From: a virus
Taxonomy: Duplodnaviria > Caudoviricetes
Strand: one strand, 5' to 3'
DNA: 64,000 bases
Virus record (IMG/VR): IMGVR_UViG_3300000553_000030
Coordinates: 1,805-65,804 of that record
The notes under the pieces are model-generated. The model did no database searches and was not told where the DNA came from. It saw only the letters and a program-made list of their open reading frames with translations. Below, one piece after another: positions 19 through 56,758 of this stretch (positions are counted from its first letter, which is position 1; the number at the start of each line of letters is the position of its first letter). A program made the translations under genes and the position numbers.

Positions 19-882
19 TCATATAATGATATTATCACGATTATTCTGTGATGTCAATAATTTTTTCCAATGATGTCTATTAAAATTTGTTTTTGGATGA
101 CAACTACAACATAATGTTATTAAATTTTTAATTGTATTATTTAGTTTGTTATAATCAATATGGTGAATTACCAGATTTCTTTTAAATTTTTGCTTAGATT
201 TATTTTCATCTATAAAGCATACTTGACACCTGTAATTATCTCTTGTTTTTATTATATTTTTTAGTGTGTTATTAAATTCTATAGAATATTCTCCAAAACT
301 ACTTCCACCATTCCAACAAGGGTTTCTTTCTCCCATTTTACTAACTTTTATTTTTTCTCGTGCCTCCGATTTTTTAGCGGGATTTGTTTTTGGATTTTTT
401 AATCTAACCGAATTAGCTTTATTTAAACATTTTTTACACAATTCGCTCGTATAATATATTTTAGCATTGCAAAGTTTACATTTTCCAGTTTTGCGATTTC
501 CAGAGGTTTTCCCATCTTTAAAATTTGGATTGTTTATCCCAACATATTTGCCAAGTTTAACTATGCTTTGTTGTTTTTTACTTGTATCTGTATGGAACTT
601 TTTATAAAACCCATTTCTATCCCCAATGCTTGCACACCGTCTACAAAATGTTCCGGCCGGGTGAATCCATGTATCACAATCTTTACATTTCTTTTTATAT
701 CCATATGTTCTTCCACTAATTCTAAATCGTTTTTCCTTTGTTTTTATAATATCTGGAAAGGTTGATTTTTCTAAATCTTTTTGCATTTTTCCAATAATAT
801 CGCATTTGCCTATCACGGCGTTCTGCAATGAGTTCTTCAATTGGCCTGTTAAGTTTTTTTCTTCCCATAAATTTTTATTCAT
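19..882 (-). CDS. HNH homing-endonuclease-like protein with CxxC and NUMOD3-like segments
   Basis: C-terminal RDNYRCQVC...IHHIDYNKLNN...NLITLCCSCHPKT HNH motif; GERNPCWNGG and GINNPNFKDG repeats. Start uncertain (882 or an internal Met). Confidence 0.8.
   Translation of the reverse strand: MNKNLWEEKNLTGQLKNSLQNAVIGKCDIIGKMQKDLEKSTFPDIIKTKEKRFRISGRTYGYKKKCKDCDTWIHPAGTFCRRCASIGDRNGFYKKFHTDTSKKQQSIVKLGKYVGINNPNFKDGKTSGNRKTGKCKLCNAKIYYTSELCKKCLNKANSVRLKNPKTNPAKKSEAREKIKVSKMGERNPCWNGGSSFGEYSIEFNNTLKNIIKTRDNYRCQVCFIDENKSKQKFKRNLVIHHIDYNKLNNTIKNLITLCCSCHPKTNFNRHHWKKLLTSQNNRDNIII
722..868 (-). CDS. Small basic 'MGRK' protein (48 aa) nested out of frame in the 5' part of the HNH ORF
   Basis: Manual translation MGRKKLNRPIEELIAERRDRQMRYYWKNAKRFRKINLSRYYKNKGKTI*; three paralogs elsewhere in the window. 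Confidence 0.7.
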   Translation of the reverse strand: MGRKKLNRPIEELIAERRDRQMRYYWKNAKRFRKINLSRYYKNKGKTI

Positions 883-888
883 ATACTA

Positions 889-895
889 ATAAATA
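889..895 (-). promoter_or_regulatory. Recurrent TATTTAT motif (putative phage promoter), 6 nt before ATG 882
   Basis: Same motif at similar spacing before many genes (see findings). Confidence 0.55.
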
Positions 896-949
896 GTATA
901 TAGAAAATTAAAAGTATAAAAAAATGTATGAAAATTTTGTTGTAATTCT

Positions 950-1264
950 TTACGCATATGTTAATTCTTTCTTTGGTTTGTGTCTAAATATTTTCTTCTC
1001 AATAAAATCTTCTAATTCATCTTCAAGTCTCTCTAAAAATTCTTGTTCTACTTCATATCGAGTAGTCTGTTTTGTGTTTTCTTTTACTATCTTCAAAACA
1101 TCGGTAATTGTTTCTGGTGGATGTTTTACATCTATGTAAAGTGCTCCAAATGGATAGTTTGACCAAACAGAATCCACTGAAATCGAAGTTTGTAATCTAA
1201 ATCCCAACGATTCCAGAAACTTTTCAGATTTTTCCGGTAAATGTATTTGTGTTAAGTGCGCCAT
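950..1264 (-). CDS. Hypothetical protein
   Basis: 104-aa ATG ORF in the minus-strand gene run. Confidence 0.6.
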   Translation of the reverse strand: MAHLTQIHLPEKSEKFLESLGFRLQTSISVDSVWSNYPFGALYIDVKHPPETITDVLKIVKENTKQTTRYEVEQEFLERLEDELEDFIEKKIFRHKPKKELTYA

Positions 1265-1367
1265 ATTAAATCCAAATAATCGCTACAGAATTTACATTCA
1301 TCTTTTATGACGGAAGGAAACCCAATCGCCAATTGTATGTAAATCTTTAGGAAAGCCTAGAGTATTA

Positions 1368-1401
1368 CAAGCACAATCCCTTTAGGGGTTGTGTGGTTGA
1401 C
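1368..1401. mobile_element. Hairpin resembling an IS200/IS605-family (IscB/HEARO/TnpB) end, degenerate
   Basis: Minus strand GTCAAC-CA-CACAACCCC-TAAA-GGGATTGTG-CTTG; no transposase or IscB/TnpB ORF adjacent. Confidence 0.4.
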
Positions 1402-54672: not shown

Positions 54673-54677
54673 AAATG

Positions 54678-56423
54678 TTATTTACCCCAGTCTATATCAT
54701 CGTCCAAATTCAAATTCTTTCCCACCTGAGAAAAGTCTCCAACCCACTGTCCTTTTACCCATCGTAAATTGATATCGAATTGAATTATGGATCTATTCCC
54801 AATAAATACCTCAATTTTAGAGGAAAAGTCTGAATAATCTTCTTTGGGGGTGGAGACTACTTTAAATTGTCCCGATTTTTCTTTCGTGGCAATCGCATTA
54901 TAAGAAGGTATCATATACACTTTCTTCCCACCTCTGGAAACATACATATAAGATGTCGCATTTTCCGATGCCAAGGATTTGGCCAAGAATAATGGAATGT
55001 TTGCAGTCTTGTTGTTTTTATTATCATTGATATAGCGATTGATATTATCAGTCAAAAATTTCTTTTTATATTCTGTATATTTTCCGATAAAGTTTCTAAT
55101 TTCACTGCTTGCTGCTGGATGAGATATGTTTTTTAGATCTCCGTATAGTTTAGAATAAAATTTTTCCATATTTGAATTCTGACTATATATAGGATATGTT
55201 ATTGTTTTAGGGTCAAATGGGGCTATGGAACCAAATTTTTTCTTATCATATTTCGTGTAAATGGAATTTAATCCACCTACGTAAAATCTTAATAGTGTAT
55301 CAATATCTGTCGGATATCGCTTATATAATTCTTCCAAAAGACTTGTGTTCTCTCCATATACAATTCCACATAAATTTTGTAATGTTTCTCGTGTGGATAC
55401 ATATCCCAGCTGTCCTGCCTGATATTTGAGAGAAATACTCAGTTTTTCTTCTGATGTTATCGTAATAATCGCGTCGGCTACAGTTTTCATCCCAGTTGCA
55501 AATACTCTGATAATAAATTGTGGTTGTTTTTCCCCATACAATTCATAAAATTTTTCGTATGCTCCGGCTGCACAATTAGCGGCGTCATCCCTGCGCAGCA
55601 TTATCTCAGGGGAATATTCCGGAACACCTTTCAATACATCTTCAAATAGTGTCATTATTTTTTGTCTATTTTCCGGAGTAATTTTAATAGCAGAATTCAA
55701 TACCTTCCGTAGACTGTCATTATTTGTTACACTGGCAAGATTGTTTACTTTGGAATTTCCTTGATGGAGCATTTCAGATAGTGCTATTACAAAGAAGCAT
55801 TCATGTAAATGTTCTGTTAACCCGACAATTGATATTTGTCCGGAAGTTTTCTTGGCGGGATTTATGAAAAATGTGTTTAATTGTTTCCCAATGGGAAGAT
55901 AAAATAAAACATAATCAGAACCTTCTAGTTCCCATAATGACATCGTTTTATCTTCAGGACCATCATAAATTATGGGCCAATGACCAGAAATCTTAATCTG
56001 AAGTTTTTCGTGGGTTGATGTTCCGGGTGGACATCTTTTTATTAACGAATTGTTATCAATGGAATCGAGAACCGATAGCATTTCCACTGCCCCTTCATAT
56101 GCCTTCTTTTCCTGGGGCGTTTCTTTTGGGATATCATTGAGATATTTTTGTTTAACAACTTTGAGTTTGTTAAGGAATGCCTGTTGGACCTTTAATTCGG
56201 TGTATTCTGTAGTATCCCCTGGCATTAATGTTAGCTCATCTAATACCCCCGCACTTTCAAATAGAAAATTTAATTTGTTTATATCGAAATAGTGTTGGTA
56301 TTCGTTTTCAATCAAGAAAGACTCAAAGTGATACAAGTCTTGACTATTTTTAATATCAAAGTATGCACCACCATCTTCTCTCTCGGCAAAATATTCGGTT
56401 AGTATGTTATCTAAAGTGACCAT
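54678..56423 (-). CDS. Large protein with PD-(D/E)XK restriction-endonuclease-like motif
   Basis: LHE...TVADAII...LSISLKY; TATTTAT motif upstream. Confidence 0.5.
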   Translation of the reverse strand: MVTLDNILTEYFAEREDGGAYFDIKNSQDLYHFESFLIENEYQHYFDINKLNFLFESAGVLDELTLMPGDTTEYTELKVQQAFLNKLKVVKQKYLNDIPKETPQEKKAYEGAVEMLSVLDSIDNNSLIKRCPPGTSTHEKLQIKISGHWPIIYDGPEDKTMSLWELEGSDYVLFYLPIGKQLNTFFINPAKKTSGQISIVGLTEHLHECFFVIALSEMLHQGNSKVNNLASVTNNDSLRKVLNSAIKITPENRQKIMTLFEDVLKGVPEYSPEIMLRRDDAANCAAGAYEKFYELYGEKQPQFIIRVFATGMKTVADAIITITSEEKLSISLKYQAGQLGYVSTRETLQNLCGIVYGENTSLLEELYKRYPTDIDTLLRFYVGGLNSIYTKYDKKKFGSIAPFDPKTITYPIYSQNSNMEKFYSKLYGDLKNISHPAASSEIRNFIGKYTEYKKKFLTDNINRYINDNKNNKTANIPLFLAKSLASENATSYMYVSRGGKKVYMIPSYNAIATKEKSGQFKVVSTPKEDYSDFSSKIEVFIGNRSIIQFDINLRWVKGQWVGDFSQVGKNLNLDDDIDWGK

Positions 56424-56466
56424 TATAGTATAACTATAAATATGGCCAGCATTAACAAAAATATCA

Positions 56467-56568
56467 TTATAATTCGATGTAAATCATGTCATGATAGTTT
56501 TTTCCGGCATAACACTTAATAGGAAACTGGTCTTTAATCATTATCTGCTTAATTAATAAAATTGTCGT
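56467..56568 (-). pseudogene. Orphan duplicate of the PolA-like polymerase C-terminus
   Basis: Reads IKQIMIKDQFPIKCYAGKNYHDMIYIEL* versus VRDILVNEQFPVKCYAGRTYHNMAIIDL* at the end of 57281-58669. Confidence 0.75.
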
Positions 56569-56596
56569 TTACAGTTTATCGTTTATATTTATTAAC

Positions 56597-56758
56597 ATGG
56601 GAAGAAAACAAATATATAAAACGTATGAACAATTGCTTGCGGTTAATAAGCTTCGCGCAAATGAATATTATGCAAAAAATAAAGACGTTGTAAATAAGAA
56701 GCGACGAGAACGATATAAACAATTAAAGAATCAGTCGAGGTTGATTATCAATGAGTAG
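56597..56758 (+). CDS. Small basic 'MGRK' protein (53 aa)
   Basis: Manual translation MGRKQIYKTYEQLLAVNKLRANEYYAKNKDVVNKKRRERYKQLKNQSRLIINE*; TATTTAT 4 nt upstream. Confidence 0.65.
   Translation: MGRKQIYKTYEQLLAVNKLRANEYYAKNKDVVNKKRRERYKQLKNQSRLIINE

What the first reader, a model, noticed from the sequence alone, without database searches (positions are those of the whole stretch)
722..56758. 'MGRK' basic micro-protein family paired with unrelated endonucleases, twice overprinted on them
Seen: four 46-53 aa ORFs (722-868, 30635-30793, 43859-43999, 56597-56758) share MGRK..(Y/N).T.EE....R..Q.RYY.KN...I....RY. Each sits at the 5' end of a different nuclease type (HNH, GIY-YIG, SLDRID-type HNH, Vsr-like). 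At 868 and 30793 the micro-ORF lies entirely inside the nuclease ORF in another frame, and both nuclease N-termini read LWEEKNLT. The GIY-YIG ORF has no Met between its first codons and the YVY motif, so it needs either true dual-frame coding or a +1 shift from the MGRK frame (A7 run at 30658-30664). Inference: a portable regulator, inhibitor or DNA-binding module for homing endonucleases. Three of the four are absent from the ORF track.
Basis: partly seen in the sequence, partly recalled or inferred. Interest (0 to 1): 0.72.

Follow-up and report, generated by a model that had tools for sequence, protein, structure and literature searches.

The report
Small basic gene overprinted on homing nucleases
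Four mobile nuclease genes in this lake phage share a portable front end, in which a promoter-like element is followed by a tiny conserved basic protein gene laid over the start of the nuclease gene in another reading frame, an arrangement found in many uncultured phages and, as far as my searches went, not described in print.

Summary
Four 46-53-aa MGRK ORFs sit at the stated coordinates; three are on the minus strand. Each heads a different nuclease: HNH, GIY-YIG, EndoVII/HNH-like and Vsr-like.

The family is large. A profile search found 189 clusters, and 137 of the 150 listed are 100 aa or shorter. In 73 of 80 related phage loci a long nuclease ORF follows in the +1 frame.

Only the MGRK frame shows amino-acid selection. 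The +1 frame is nevertheless kept free of stops: 45 of 69 sequences have none, against about 3 expected. It always has its own ATG (65 of 65, against about 23 expected).

No conserved slippery site was found. I therefore read this as true overlapping genes with separate starts, not a +1 frameshift.

Upstream lies a conserved element: two copies of a box that differs between cassettes but matches within each one, then TATTTAT, then an ATG 4-7 nt later. This suggests a leaderless mRNA.

MGRK is predicted to be a short arm plus one long helix. It is most likely a DNA-binding regulator of the cassette. That function is inferred, not shown.

Two of the four nucleases here are decayed.

Earlier notes of this scan record the same cassette on other DNA (e1-5391461, e1-6145203, e1-6212311). 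I found no paper describing it.

The parts
883..935 (-). Cassette 1 upstream element. TATTTAT is at 889-895. TATAC boxes are at 896-900 and 914-918, with a T-rich spacer between them.
722..868 (-). MGRK ORF 1 (48 aa). It is nested in the HNH ORF and starts 14 nt after the nuclease-frame ATG.
19..882 (-). HNH homing-endonuclease ORF (287 aa, intact), in the +1 frame relative to MGRK 1. Its ATG at 882 lies 6 nt after TATTTAT, the same spacing as at ordinary genes of this phage.
30814..30880 (-). Cassette 2 upstream element. TATTTAT is at 30831-30837. CGTGAC boxes are at 30842-30847 and 30857-30862.
30635..30793 (-). MGRK ORF 2 (52 aa), nested in the GIY-YIG ORF.
29827..30813 (-). GIY-YIG (LEM-3-like) plus NUMOD3 endonuclease ORF (328 aa, intact here), in the +1 frame. 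ATGs at 30813 and 30804 lie upstream of the MGRK ATG, and AGGA lies 8 nt before 30813. Two 2020 lake assemblies lack one base at 29999.
44023..44055 (-). Cassette 3 upstream element. TACTTAT is at 44023-44029, with CTAC(T) boxes upstream. A 23-nt leader carrying AAAGGA precedes the MGRK ATG.
43859..43999 (-). MGRK ORF 3 (46 aa).
43214..43956 (-). EndoVII/HNH-type endonuclease in the +1 frame, with candidate starts at 43956 and 43880. It is split into 43510-43956 and 43214-43627 by a one-base loss near 43592. A 2020 lake assembly carries the extra base, which puts the two parts in one frame.
56552..56596 (+). Cassette 4 upstream element. TCGTTTA boxes are at 56565-56571 and 56579-56585. TATTTAT is at 56586-56592, and the MGRK ATG follows 4 nt later.
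56597..56758 (+). MGRK ORF 4 (53 aa).
56751..57294 (+). Remnant of a Vsr-like/DUF723-type endonuclease. Its +1-frame ATG at 56751 overlaps the MGRK end. It survives as two ORFs (56751-57053 and 56983-57294) that match only the repeat region and the last 80 residues of a 380-aa relative.

Best explanation
Each of the four sites is a copy of a portable expression cassette for free-standing homing endonuclease genes.

The cassette has three parts. First comes a promoter-like element: two copies of a 5-7-nt box that differs between cassettes but is the same within one, about 15 nt apart with a T-rich spacer, followed by TATTTAT. Second is a roughly 45-55-aa basic MGRK gene. Third is a nuclease ORF in the +1 frame that overlaps MGRK partly or completely.

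The two ORFs are translated independently from separate ATGs. Whichever ATG lies 4-7 nt after TATTTAT is probably the 5' end of a leaderless or near-leaderless mRNA. In copies 1 and 2 of this window the nuclease-frame ATG comes first and MGRK is nested. In copies 3 and 4 MGRK comes first and the nuclease ATG sits at or near its end.

The stretch of the nuclease frame that overlies MGRK is a sequence-unconstrained spacer. It only has to stay open.

MGRK itself (an N-terminal arm plus one long basic helix) most likely binds DNA. It probably binds the paired boxes of its own cassette and sets or limits nuclease expression.

Shown: the family, the frame rule, which frame is under selection, stop depletion, presence of an ATG, the repeat architecture, and the nuclease association.

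Inferred: promoter function, leaderless transcripts, translation of both frames, and DNA binding or autoregulation.

Sub-odds: separate starts rather than recoding, about 0.75. MGRK is a nucleic-acid binder, about 0.6. MGRK binds the paired boxes, about 0.3.
For: Family size and form. The profile search gives 189 proteins at E<=1e-3, and 137 of the 150 listed are <=100 aa, most of them 44-60 aa.

Frame rule. In 73 of 80 IMG/VR loci the MGRK stop is followed by >=145 open codons in the +1 frame. One locus uses +2 and three are in-frame fusions.

Nuclease association. Of 63 downstream ORFs, Pfam gives GIY-YIG in 35, NUMOD3 in 27, DUF4379 in 4, DUF723 in 2, three HNH models (HNH, HNH_3, HNH_5) in one member each, and LAGLIDADG_3 in 1.

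Selection. The synonymous share of single-base codon differences is 0.564 in the MGRK frame, against 0.174 in +1 and 0.177 in +2.

Stop depletion. +1-frame stops inside MGRK average 0.57 per sequence, against 2.44 under synonymous resampling. Sequences with no stop number 45 of 69, against a null mean of 3.1 and a maximum of 10 in 1000. The +2 control gives 4.36 against 5.58, with 0 of 69 stop-free.

Own start codon. An ATG-started +1 frame open through the junction is present in 65 of 65, against a null of 22.6, sd 3.1, maximum 34 in 500.

Position of the first ATG. Among the 45 of 69 sequences with an exact repeat architecture, the first ATG after TATTTAT is a +1-frame ATG in 28, the MGRK ATG in 12, a +2-frame ATG in 5, and never an upstream in-frame ATG.

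Separate starts seen directly. Where the RYY codons are followed by a G-starting codon, they create the nuclease ATG, and the enzyme then starts directly at its catalytic motif (MKISGIYKII...).

Paired boxes. Box 1 and box 2 agree at 4.28 of 7 positions, against 2.78 when paired across cassettes (sd 0.14, maximum 3.22 in 2000). There are 52 distinct 7-mers.

Promoter type in this phage. TATTTAT followed by 4-6 nt and an ATG also opens ordinary ORFs at 5896, 16938, 26172, 40374, 42229 and 46505.

Not an assembly error. Independent 2016 and 2020 assemblies carry the same cassette 2 overlap without indels.

Fold. AF2 gives residues 1-9 extended and helix 10-51, pLDDT 94.
Against: No transcription start, translation or binding data exist, and no RNA run was listed.

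The sigma-70 consensus scan matched the element in only 1 of 4 cassettes (W4), so the promoter type is unknown.

My strict repeat finder found the architecture in 45 of 69 sequences and missed 24. Only 26 of 67 have >=6 of 7 identical box positions in the fixed register.

In-frame MGRK-nuclease fusions exist: L025, L069 and L071, and P0087 and P0136. Some nucleases continue with MGRK-like YY..NK repeats in the +1 frame. Both points would also fit a fusion made by frameshifting.

The AAA-AAA pair in the MGRKK codons is somewhat enriched: 44 of 59, against 31.9 expected.

A nuclease with 40-70 unconstrained N-terminal residues is unusual.

The loci are related to one another, so the resampling statistics overstate independence.

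The correlation between MGRK residues 15-23 and box type (seen by eye) cannot be separated from linkage.
Confidence: 0.55

Rival explanations
1. Programmed +1 ribosomal frameshifting, or transcriptional slippage on an A-run, joins MGRK to the nuclease. MGRK alone would be the unshifted product and the fusion would be the active enzyme, as in the ORFA/ORFAB arrangement of IS1/IS3 elements (recalled).
For: The frame relation is uniform: +1 in 73 of 80 loci and in 4 of 4 window copies.

In-frame fusions to GIY-YIG, HNH and Vsr-like domains exist.

In copy 2 an A7 run sits exactly where MGRK ends and the YVY motif begins.

AAA-AAA in the MGRKK codons occurs in 44 of 59, against 31.9 expected.

Some nucleases continue the YY..NK repeat in +1.
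Against: No conserved shift-prone motif was found at the junction in the 69 sequences printed.

+1 stops are depleted along the whole MGRK ORF, which a shift near its end does not require.

Every locus has its own +1 ATG: 65 of 65.

Where there is an ATG upstream of the MGRK ATG, it is in the +1 frame in 28 of the 33 cassettes that have one. This cannot serve ribosomes that start at the MGRK ATG.

Eighteen class C loci have a +1 stop right after the MGRKK A-run.

Class A enzymes start at their own ATG.
Confidence: 0.12
2. MGRK is a protein partner of the nuclease, either an inhibitor or immunity factor or a targeting subunit. It would act by binding the enzyme rather than the cassette DNA.
For: MGRK is co-encoded with the nuclease at a fixed position. 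Rare in-frame fusions suggest the two act at the same place. MGRK ORFs stay intact where the nuclease has decayed, as in copies 3 and 4.
Against: The same conserved peptide is paired with four unrelated catalytic folds and with varied DNA-binding regions. A common protein-protein interface is therefore unlikely. The peptide is highly basic, with an extended N-terminal arm, which is more typical of nucleic-acid binding.
Confidence: 0.1
3. MGRK serves the element or the phage in another way. It could be a general AT-rich DNA or RNA binder that helps homing or recombination, or acts on the host. Or it could be mainly a cis-acting translated leader whose translation gates access to the nuclease start.
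For: The nuclease starts overlap MGRK in every class, as with the upstream-ORF overlaps of T4 seg and mob genes that were proposed to limit translation (PMC2988022, passages read). The N-terminal MGRK/MGRP arm is also found in mushroom proteins of unknown function.
Against: Strong amino-acid-level selection argues against a purely cis-acting leader: synonymous share 0.564, and 12 invariant columns among the four copies. The box pairs that match within each cassette call for a sequence-specific reader encoded nearby.
Confidence: 0.18
4. The small ORFs are only N-terminal fragments of decaying nuclease genes, or artefacts of homopolymer sequencing errors.
For: Two of the four nucleases in the window are really broken. 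Homing endonuclease genes commonly carry frameshifts (PMC10448857, passages read).
Against: The stop after about 46-55 codons and the +1 offset recur in 73 of 80 divergent loci. 137 of the 150 listed proteins are <=100 aa. Independent assemblies agree base for base over the cassette 2 overlap. Stop depletion and ATG retention show selection on the arrangement.
Confidence: 0.03

Closest known systems
Free-standing homing endonuclease genes of T4-type phages whose starts overlap the upstream ORF (segC, segF, mobA, mobE). Source: PMC2988022, passages read.
   Same: The nuclease start lies inside or at the end of an upstream ORF. This was proposed to limit nuclease translation. Window copies 3 and 4 look like this.
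   Different: In T4 the upstream ORF is a resident phage gene. Here it is a conserved small gene that travels with the nuclease. In most members the overlap covers the whole small ORF, with the nuclease ATG placed first.
I-TevI acting as transcriptional autorepressor at an operator overlapping its own promoter. Source: PMC2988022, passages read.
   Same: It is a mobile nuclease cassette with a sequence-specific site laid over its own promoter. This is the logic I propose for the paired boxes.
   Different: In I-TevI the nuclease's own DNA-binding domain is the repressor. Here a separate 50-aa protein is the candidate, and no binding has been shown.
Controller (C) proteins of type II restriction-modification systems. 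This comparison is a lead from the earlier scan note e1-5391461. The properties given are recalled, and I read no paper on them.
   Same: A small regulator gene placed just upstream of, and co-transcribed with, a potentially toxic nuclease gene. It acts on repeated boxes in its own promoter. Several such transcripts are leaderless (recalled).
   Different: C proteins are helix-turn-helix dimers. MGRK is predicted as an arm plus a single helix and has no Pfam match. MGRK is overprinted on the nuclease ORF rather than lying in front of it.
ORFA / ORFAB transposases of IS1 and IS3 elements made by programmed frameshifting (recalled; review PMC5009743 searched only for the term 'homing endonuclease').
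   Same: A small basic DNA-binding ORF is followed by the catalytic ORF in another frame, in a selfish element.
   Different: Those elements use -1 shifts at conserved slippery heptamers, and the catalytic ORF lacks its own start. Here the offset is +1, no conserved site was found, and every nuclease ORF has an ATG.
Out-of-frame 'hidden' HNH endonuclease inside a phage methylase insertion (ShiLan). Source: PMC11855218, abstract and outline read.
   Same: A homing nuclease encoded in an alternative frame overlapping another coding sequence in a phage.
   Different: There the nuclease is overprinted on its host gene's insertion. Here a dedicated small gene and the nuclease overlap within one portable cassette.

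Membership tests
Free-standing homing endonuclease gene | Recognisable homing-type nuclease domain (GIY-YIG, HNH, Vsr/PD-(D/E)xK-like, LAGLIDADG) | tested here: met
   Window. Relatives: of 63 ORFs, GIY-YIG in 35, three HNH models in one member each, DUF723/DUF4379 in 2 and 4, LAGLIDADG_3 in 1.
Free-standing homing endonuclease gene | Sporadic presence and frequent decay between close strains | tested here: met
   Copy 3 is split here but in one frame in a 2020 assembly. Copy 2 lacks a base at 29999 in two 2020 assemblies. Copy 4 is a remnant. Presence or absence of whole cassettes between strains was not examined.
Free-standing homing endonuclease gene | Demonstrated cleavage of a cognate cassette-less site and gene conversion | not testable with these tools
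   Needs phage crosses or in vitro cleavage.
Overlapping (overprinted) protein-coding genes | Two frames open over the same bases beyond chance | tested here: met
   +1 frame stop-free in 45 of 69 sequences, against a null mean of 3.1. The +2 control gives 0 of 69.
Overlapping (overprinted) protein-coding genes | Each frame has its own start codon | tested here: met
   M1 of MGRK is invariant. A +1 ATG with an open frame through the junction is present in 65 of 65.
Overlapping (overprinted) protein-coding genes | Amino-acid-level selection in both frames | tested here: not met
   The synonymous share is 0.564 in the MGRK frame but 0.174 in +1, the same as the +2 control at 0.177. The nuclease frame is only kept open over the overlap.
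Overlapping (overprinted) protein-coding genes | Both products made | not testable with these tools
   No RNA or proteome data.
Programmed +1 frameshift gene | Conserved shift-prone site in the 0/+1 overlap | tested here: not met
   Junction codons of 69 sequences show no common motif. The A-run in MGRKK is absent or interrupted in 25 of 69.
Programmed +1 frameshift gene | Downstream ORF lacks an independent start | tested here: not met
   65 of 65 have an ATG. Class A enzymes begin at their catalytic motif.
Controller-type autoregulator (C protein / I-TevI logic) | Helix-turn-helix or other known DNA-binding fold | tested here: not met
   AF2 gives an arm plus a single helix. Foldseek against PDB gave no match. 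No credible family match: Pfam gave only one sub-threshold hit (TilS, E 0.013, below its curated cut-off), and PHROGs gave two marginal hits at E 0.003 and 0.009.
Controller-type autoregulator (C protein / I-TevI logic) | Repeated operator boxes in its own promoter that the protein binds | tested here: inconclusive
   Paired boxes that match within a cassette and differ between cassettes are present. Binding was not testable. The link to MGRK residues is confounded by linkage.
Leaderless mRNA | Transcript 5' end at or within a few nt of the start codon | not testable with these tools
   Only positional evidence: an ATG 4-7 nt after TATTTAT in 25 of 45 cassettes, and at six ordinary genes in the window.
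NUMOD / AT-hook nuclease-associated DNA-binding modules | Profile match of MGRK to the Pfam models | tested here: not met
   No NUMOD or AT_hook hit for the four peptides at E<=0.1. An AT_hook-bearing cluster appears only as a weak atlas neighbour, score 0.89.

The most novel reading that the evidence does not exclude
MGRK proteins are minimal single-helix, sequence-specific autoregulators whose recognition residues co-evolve with the paired boxes of their own cassette. That would give dozens of orthogonal 45-aa repressor/operator pairs that travel with homing endonucleases of any fold. Overprinting on a leaderless mRNA would fix the regulator-to-nuclease ratio, because two start codons would compete for ribosomes at the 5' end.
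Probability: 0.25. Interest if true: 0.85.

Novelty: new variant of a known kind. Interest (0 to 1): 0.68.

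Why it matters
Homing endonucleases must be expressed enough to spread but not enough to harm their carrier. How free-standing ones are controlled is largely unknown outside T4.

Here a single portable front end serves at least four unrelated nuclease superfamilies in many uncultured phages. This points to a general, transferable control module.

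It is also a clean natural case of long-range overprinting in which one frame is selected only to stay open. Gene callers mostly report only one of the two ORFs, so both the small protein family and the true nuclease starts are likely to be mis-annotated.

If the boxes and MGRK form specific pairs, they would be a source of very small orthogonal regulators.

Tried and rejected
Frameshift site. I printed the junction codons of all 69 unique sequences and found no shared slippery motif. The MGRKK A-run is only moderately enriched.

Sequencing or assembly error. Rejected, because contigs of independent runs agree over the overlaps.

Known family for MGRK. Pfam gave one sub-threshold hit, TilS at E 0.013. 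PHROGs gave only marginal hits at E 0.003-0.009. The protein atlas returned only unnamed phage clusters. Foldseek against PDB gave no match.

Cultured phages. tblastn of P0004 against the INPHARED collection gave no match at E<=1e-3. megablast of a neighbouring 4-kb stretch also gave no match. BLAST's low-complexity filter may have hidden a short basic query.

Bacterial and archaeal genomes. One scan gave a single hit, L085, on an 8.8-kb MAG contig.

Sigma-70 consensus scan. It matched the upstream element only in cassette 4. I therefore do not call it a sigma-70 promoter.

Expression data. No RNA holder was listed for the stretch.

Self-association. The two-copy complex job returned no verdict ('no answer'). 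It is not used as evidence either way.

Fungal and other long relatives. Ten proteins scanned against Pfam gave no family.

Box-MGRK specificity code. I saw a pattern by eye but did not claim it, because adjacent DNA is inherited together.

Rows dropped. Duplicate sequences and the three in-frame fusions (L025, L069, L071) were left out of the 69-sequence statistics. L041 and L047 (short or +2 downstream ORFs) and the late starters L049 and W4 were left out of the 65. Supplements of papers were not opened.

Full report
**What is there.** The four small ORFs exist at the stated coordinates. Three of them (868->722, 30793->30635, 43999->43859) are on the minus strand, and the fourth (56597->56758) is on the plus strand. 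They align without internal gaps over the first 45 columns and share 12 invariant columns. A profile built from them finds exactly these four places in the 65.8-kb virus record that holds the window. That record is a fragment, with a CheckV completeness estimate of 19%, of a roughly 32% GC phage. The phage carries DNA polymerase and ribonucleotide reductase genes. Near-identical DNA occurs in freshwater and lake metagenome runs of 2016 and 2020.

**The four nucleases.** Each MGRK ORF heads a different nuclease:
- Copy 1: HNH, 19-882, intact.
- Copy 2: LEM-3-like GIY-YIG plus NUMOD3, 29827-30813, intact.
- Copy 3: an EndoVII/HNH-type enzyme, 43214-43956.
- Copy 4: a Vsr-like/DUF723-type enzyme, 56751-57294.

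These assignments rest. In all four the nuclease frame is +1 relative to MGRK. The LWEEKNLT stretch shared by the first two nuclease ORFs is just the +1 reading of the MGRKKLN codons.

**It is not chance, error or decay.** A profile search of 1.84 billion cluster representatives gave 189 proteins at E<=1e-3. Of the 150 listed, 137 are 100 aa or shorter, mostly 44-60 aa with the match starting at residue 1.

A scan of IMG/VR gave 98 confirmed places, of which 80 were kept. In 77 of these 80 the MGRK ORF stops after 45-60 codons. In 73 of 80 at least 145 open codons follow in the +1 frame. Only L047 uses +2. L025, L069 and L071 are in-frame fusions. L026/L027 and L041 have short downstream ORFs.

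Pfam on 63 downstream ORFs found GIY-YIG in 35, NUMOD3 in 27, DUF4379 in 4, DUF723 in 2, three HNH models in one member each, and LAGLIDADG_3 in 1. The small gene therefore goes with at least four nuclease superfamilies.

Contigs from independent runs are identical to the window over 30363-31364 and 42523-44100. A 2020 strain has no indel between 30262 and 31185. The overlap is therefore real DNA and not a homopolymer artefact.

Only one place was found in about 185,000 prokaryote species genomes. It lies on a short MAG contig and has the same architecture.

**Which frame is read.** Over the first 42 codons of 69 unique sequences, entropy by MGRK codon position is 1.09, 0.85 and 1.32. Single-base codon differences are synonymous in 56.4% of cases in the MGRK frame, against 17.4% in +1 and 17.7% in +2. 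Only MGRK is under amino-acid selection.

The +1 frame nevertheless avoids stops. It has 0.57 per sequence, against 2.44 when the same peptides are recoded with local codon usage. It is stop-free in 45 of 69 sequences, against a null mean of 3.1 and a maximum of 10 in 1000 trials. The +2 frame behaves almost as expected, at 4.36 against 5.58, and is never stop-free.

The avoidance can be seen in codon choice. Leu6 is CTT or CTC rather than the locally commonest TTA, and Arg after Met is CGA rather than AGA.

**How the nuclease starts.** Every testable locus has an ATG in the +1 frame from which the frame stays open into the nuclease. That is 65 of 65, against a null of 22.6, sd 3.1, maximum 34. 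Three layouts occur:
- Class B, 41 sequences: the +1 ATG lies upstream of the MGRK ATG. Window copies 1 and 2 are of this class.
- Class C, 18 sequences: the +1 ATG lies inside the first third of MGRK, usually just after a +1 stop created by a TTA Leu6 codon. Copy 3 also has such an ATG.
- Class A, 6 sequences, plus 2 late starters: the +1 ATG lies at the junction. There the RYY codons followed by a G-starting codon spell ATG in +1, and the enzyme begins directly at its catalytic motif. Copy 3 has this ATG at 43880. Copy 4 is a late starter with its ATG at 56751.

No common slippery motif exists at the junction. Together with stop depletion far upstream of any plausible late shift site, this makes separate initiation much more likely than recoding.

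Rare in-frame fusions to GIY-YIG (P0087), HNH (P0136) and a Vsr-like enzyme (L069) show that MGRK can work while tethered to a nuclease. They keep a frameshift reading alive at low odds.

**Upstream element.** All four copies and most relatives carry the same layout. It reads: T-run, box, (G)TTTTAT(T), the same box again about 15 nt after the first, 3-4 nt, TATTTAT, then an ATG 4-7 nt later.

The box differs between cassettes. Here the boxes are TATAC, CGTGAC, CTAC(T) and TCGTTTA, and there are 52 distinct 7-mers among 67 sequences. Within a cassette the two copies agree: 4.28 of 7 positions, against 2.78 when boxes are paired across cassettes.

My strict finder detected an exact repeat in 45 of 69 sequences. 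Among those, the first ATG after TATTTAT is a +1-frame ATG in 28, the MGRK ATG in 12, a +2 ATG in 5, and never an upstream in-frame ATG.

In the window the box-pair architecture with its T-rich spacer occurs only at the four cassettes; the same call also listed 15 other, seemingly chance repeat-plus-motif hits. But TATTTAT followed by 4-6 nt and an ATG also opens ordinary ORFs at 5896, 16938, 26172, 40374, 42229 and 46505. I infer that TATTTAT is the -10-like core of a promoter type used by this phage, and that it yields leaderless or nearly leaderless mRNAs. The ATG at 882 of the HNH gene sits at exactly that spacing.

The sigma-70 consensus scan matched only cassette 4. The promoter class is therefore open.

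**What MGRK may do.** AlphaFold2 with a 103-sequence alignment predicts residues 1-9 as extended and a single helix from 10 to 51, with mean pLDDT 94. No solved fold or curated family matches.

A small, very basic arm-plus-helix protein, encoded next to boxes that change between cassettes but stay paired within one, is most simply a sequence-specific DNA binder acting on its own cassette. That is the logic known for I-TevI at its own promoter. Overlap with an upstream ORF is also a known feature of T4 seg and mob genes (PMC2988022, passages read).

By eye, residues 15-23 of MGRK track the box type. For example..RQ(M/L/K)RYY goes with CTAC boxes in two divergent subfamilies. Linkage could produce this pattern, so I treat it as a lead only.

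**State of the four copies.** Copies 1 and 2 are intact.

The nuclease of copy 3 is split by a one-base loss near 43592. A 2020 assembly has an extra base there, which puts both parts in one frame, while two 2016 assemblies agree with the window.

The nuclease of copy 4 keeps only about one and a half DNA-binding repeats and the last 80 residues of a 380-aa relative.

Conversely, two 2020 assemblies lack a base at 29999, inside the 3' part of the copy 2 nuclease. Such decay is usual for homing endonuclease genes (PMC10448857, passages read).

**Novelty.** I found no paper that holds both the N-terminal MGRKK motif and 'endonuclease' in a relevant sense. No paper combines 'homing endonuclease' with 'overprinting'. 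The papers found with 'frameshift' or 'overlapping reading frame' concern other arrangements.

Earlier notes of this scan describe the same cassette in other genomes: e1-5391461, e1-6145203 and e1-6212311. Their frame rule and open +1 frame agree with my own tests. The comparison with controller proteins comes from the first of these notes and was not tested here beyond the fold, which does not match.

**Verdict.** The arrangement is best explained as a portable homing-endonuclease expression cassette with a truly overprinted small basic gene and separate start codons. A regulatory DNA-binding role for MGRK is likely but unproven.

Noticed in passing
window 43580-43600 (minus strand), inside the copy 3 nuclease: The window and two 2016 assemblies lack one base relative to a 2020 lake assembly (an A put in behind 43592 on the plus strand). 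With that base, ORFs 43510-43956 and 43214-43627 are in one frame. The break is therefore a strain-level frameshift.
   Followed up: partly
window 29999: Two 2020 assemblies lack one base of a four-base run inside the 3' part of the GIY-YIG ORF. This would change its last ~57 codons.
   Followed up: partly
window 31186-31772: Just beyond the copy 2 cassette, the 2020 strains become highly divergent, with dozens of substitutions between 31186 and 31358 (58 in that contig piece). The stretch 31558-31772 is replaced by 228 other letters. The cassette itself is nearly identical. This may be a recombination boundary next to a nuclease gene.
   Followed up: no
window 5896, 16938, 26172, 40374, 42229, 46505 (ATG positions): Ordinary ORFs start 4-6 nt after a TATTTAT motif, often preceded by ..TAC. 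This suggests a phage-wide promoter type that yields leaderless mRNAs. The site at 16927 also has repeated TTTCTAC-like boxes.
   Followed up: partly
L013, L014, L019, L024, L033, L043, L061, L068 (downstream +1 ORFs); proteins P0096, P0135, P0136: Some nucleases begin with tandem arrays of the same YY..NK..I motif that forms the second half of MGRK. A eukaryote-like protein (P0096) has nine matched stretches of it. The motif may be a repeat-type DNA-binding module without a Pfam model.
   Followed up: no
proteins P0094, P0105, P0108, P0131, P0140, P0154: 170-270-aa proteins start with an MGRP/MGRR version of the motif. Two of them (P0105, P0131) were looked up and are named hypothetical proteins of the mushrooms Agrocybe pediades and Hypholoma sublateritium. 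None has a Pfam family.
   Followed up: partly
window 2463-5160 and 57281-58669: Two separate DNA-polymerase-like ORFs lie in the window: PHROG 262 at 3388-5160 and PHROG 17 at 57281-58669. The second directly abuts the copy 4 cassette. An ORF at 2463-3410 overlaps the end of the first. These may be polymerase genes split by mobile elements.
   Followed up: no
L085 (8.8-kb contig of a MAG labelled uncultured Bacteroides sp.): This is the only hit in the prokaryote genome collection. It has the full cassette: paired CTC(T/A)C-type boxes, TATTTAT, MGRK 4 nt later, and a GIY-YIG ORF in +1. It is probably phage DNA binned with the MAG and may hint at Bacteroidota hosts for some members.
   Followed up: partly
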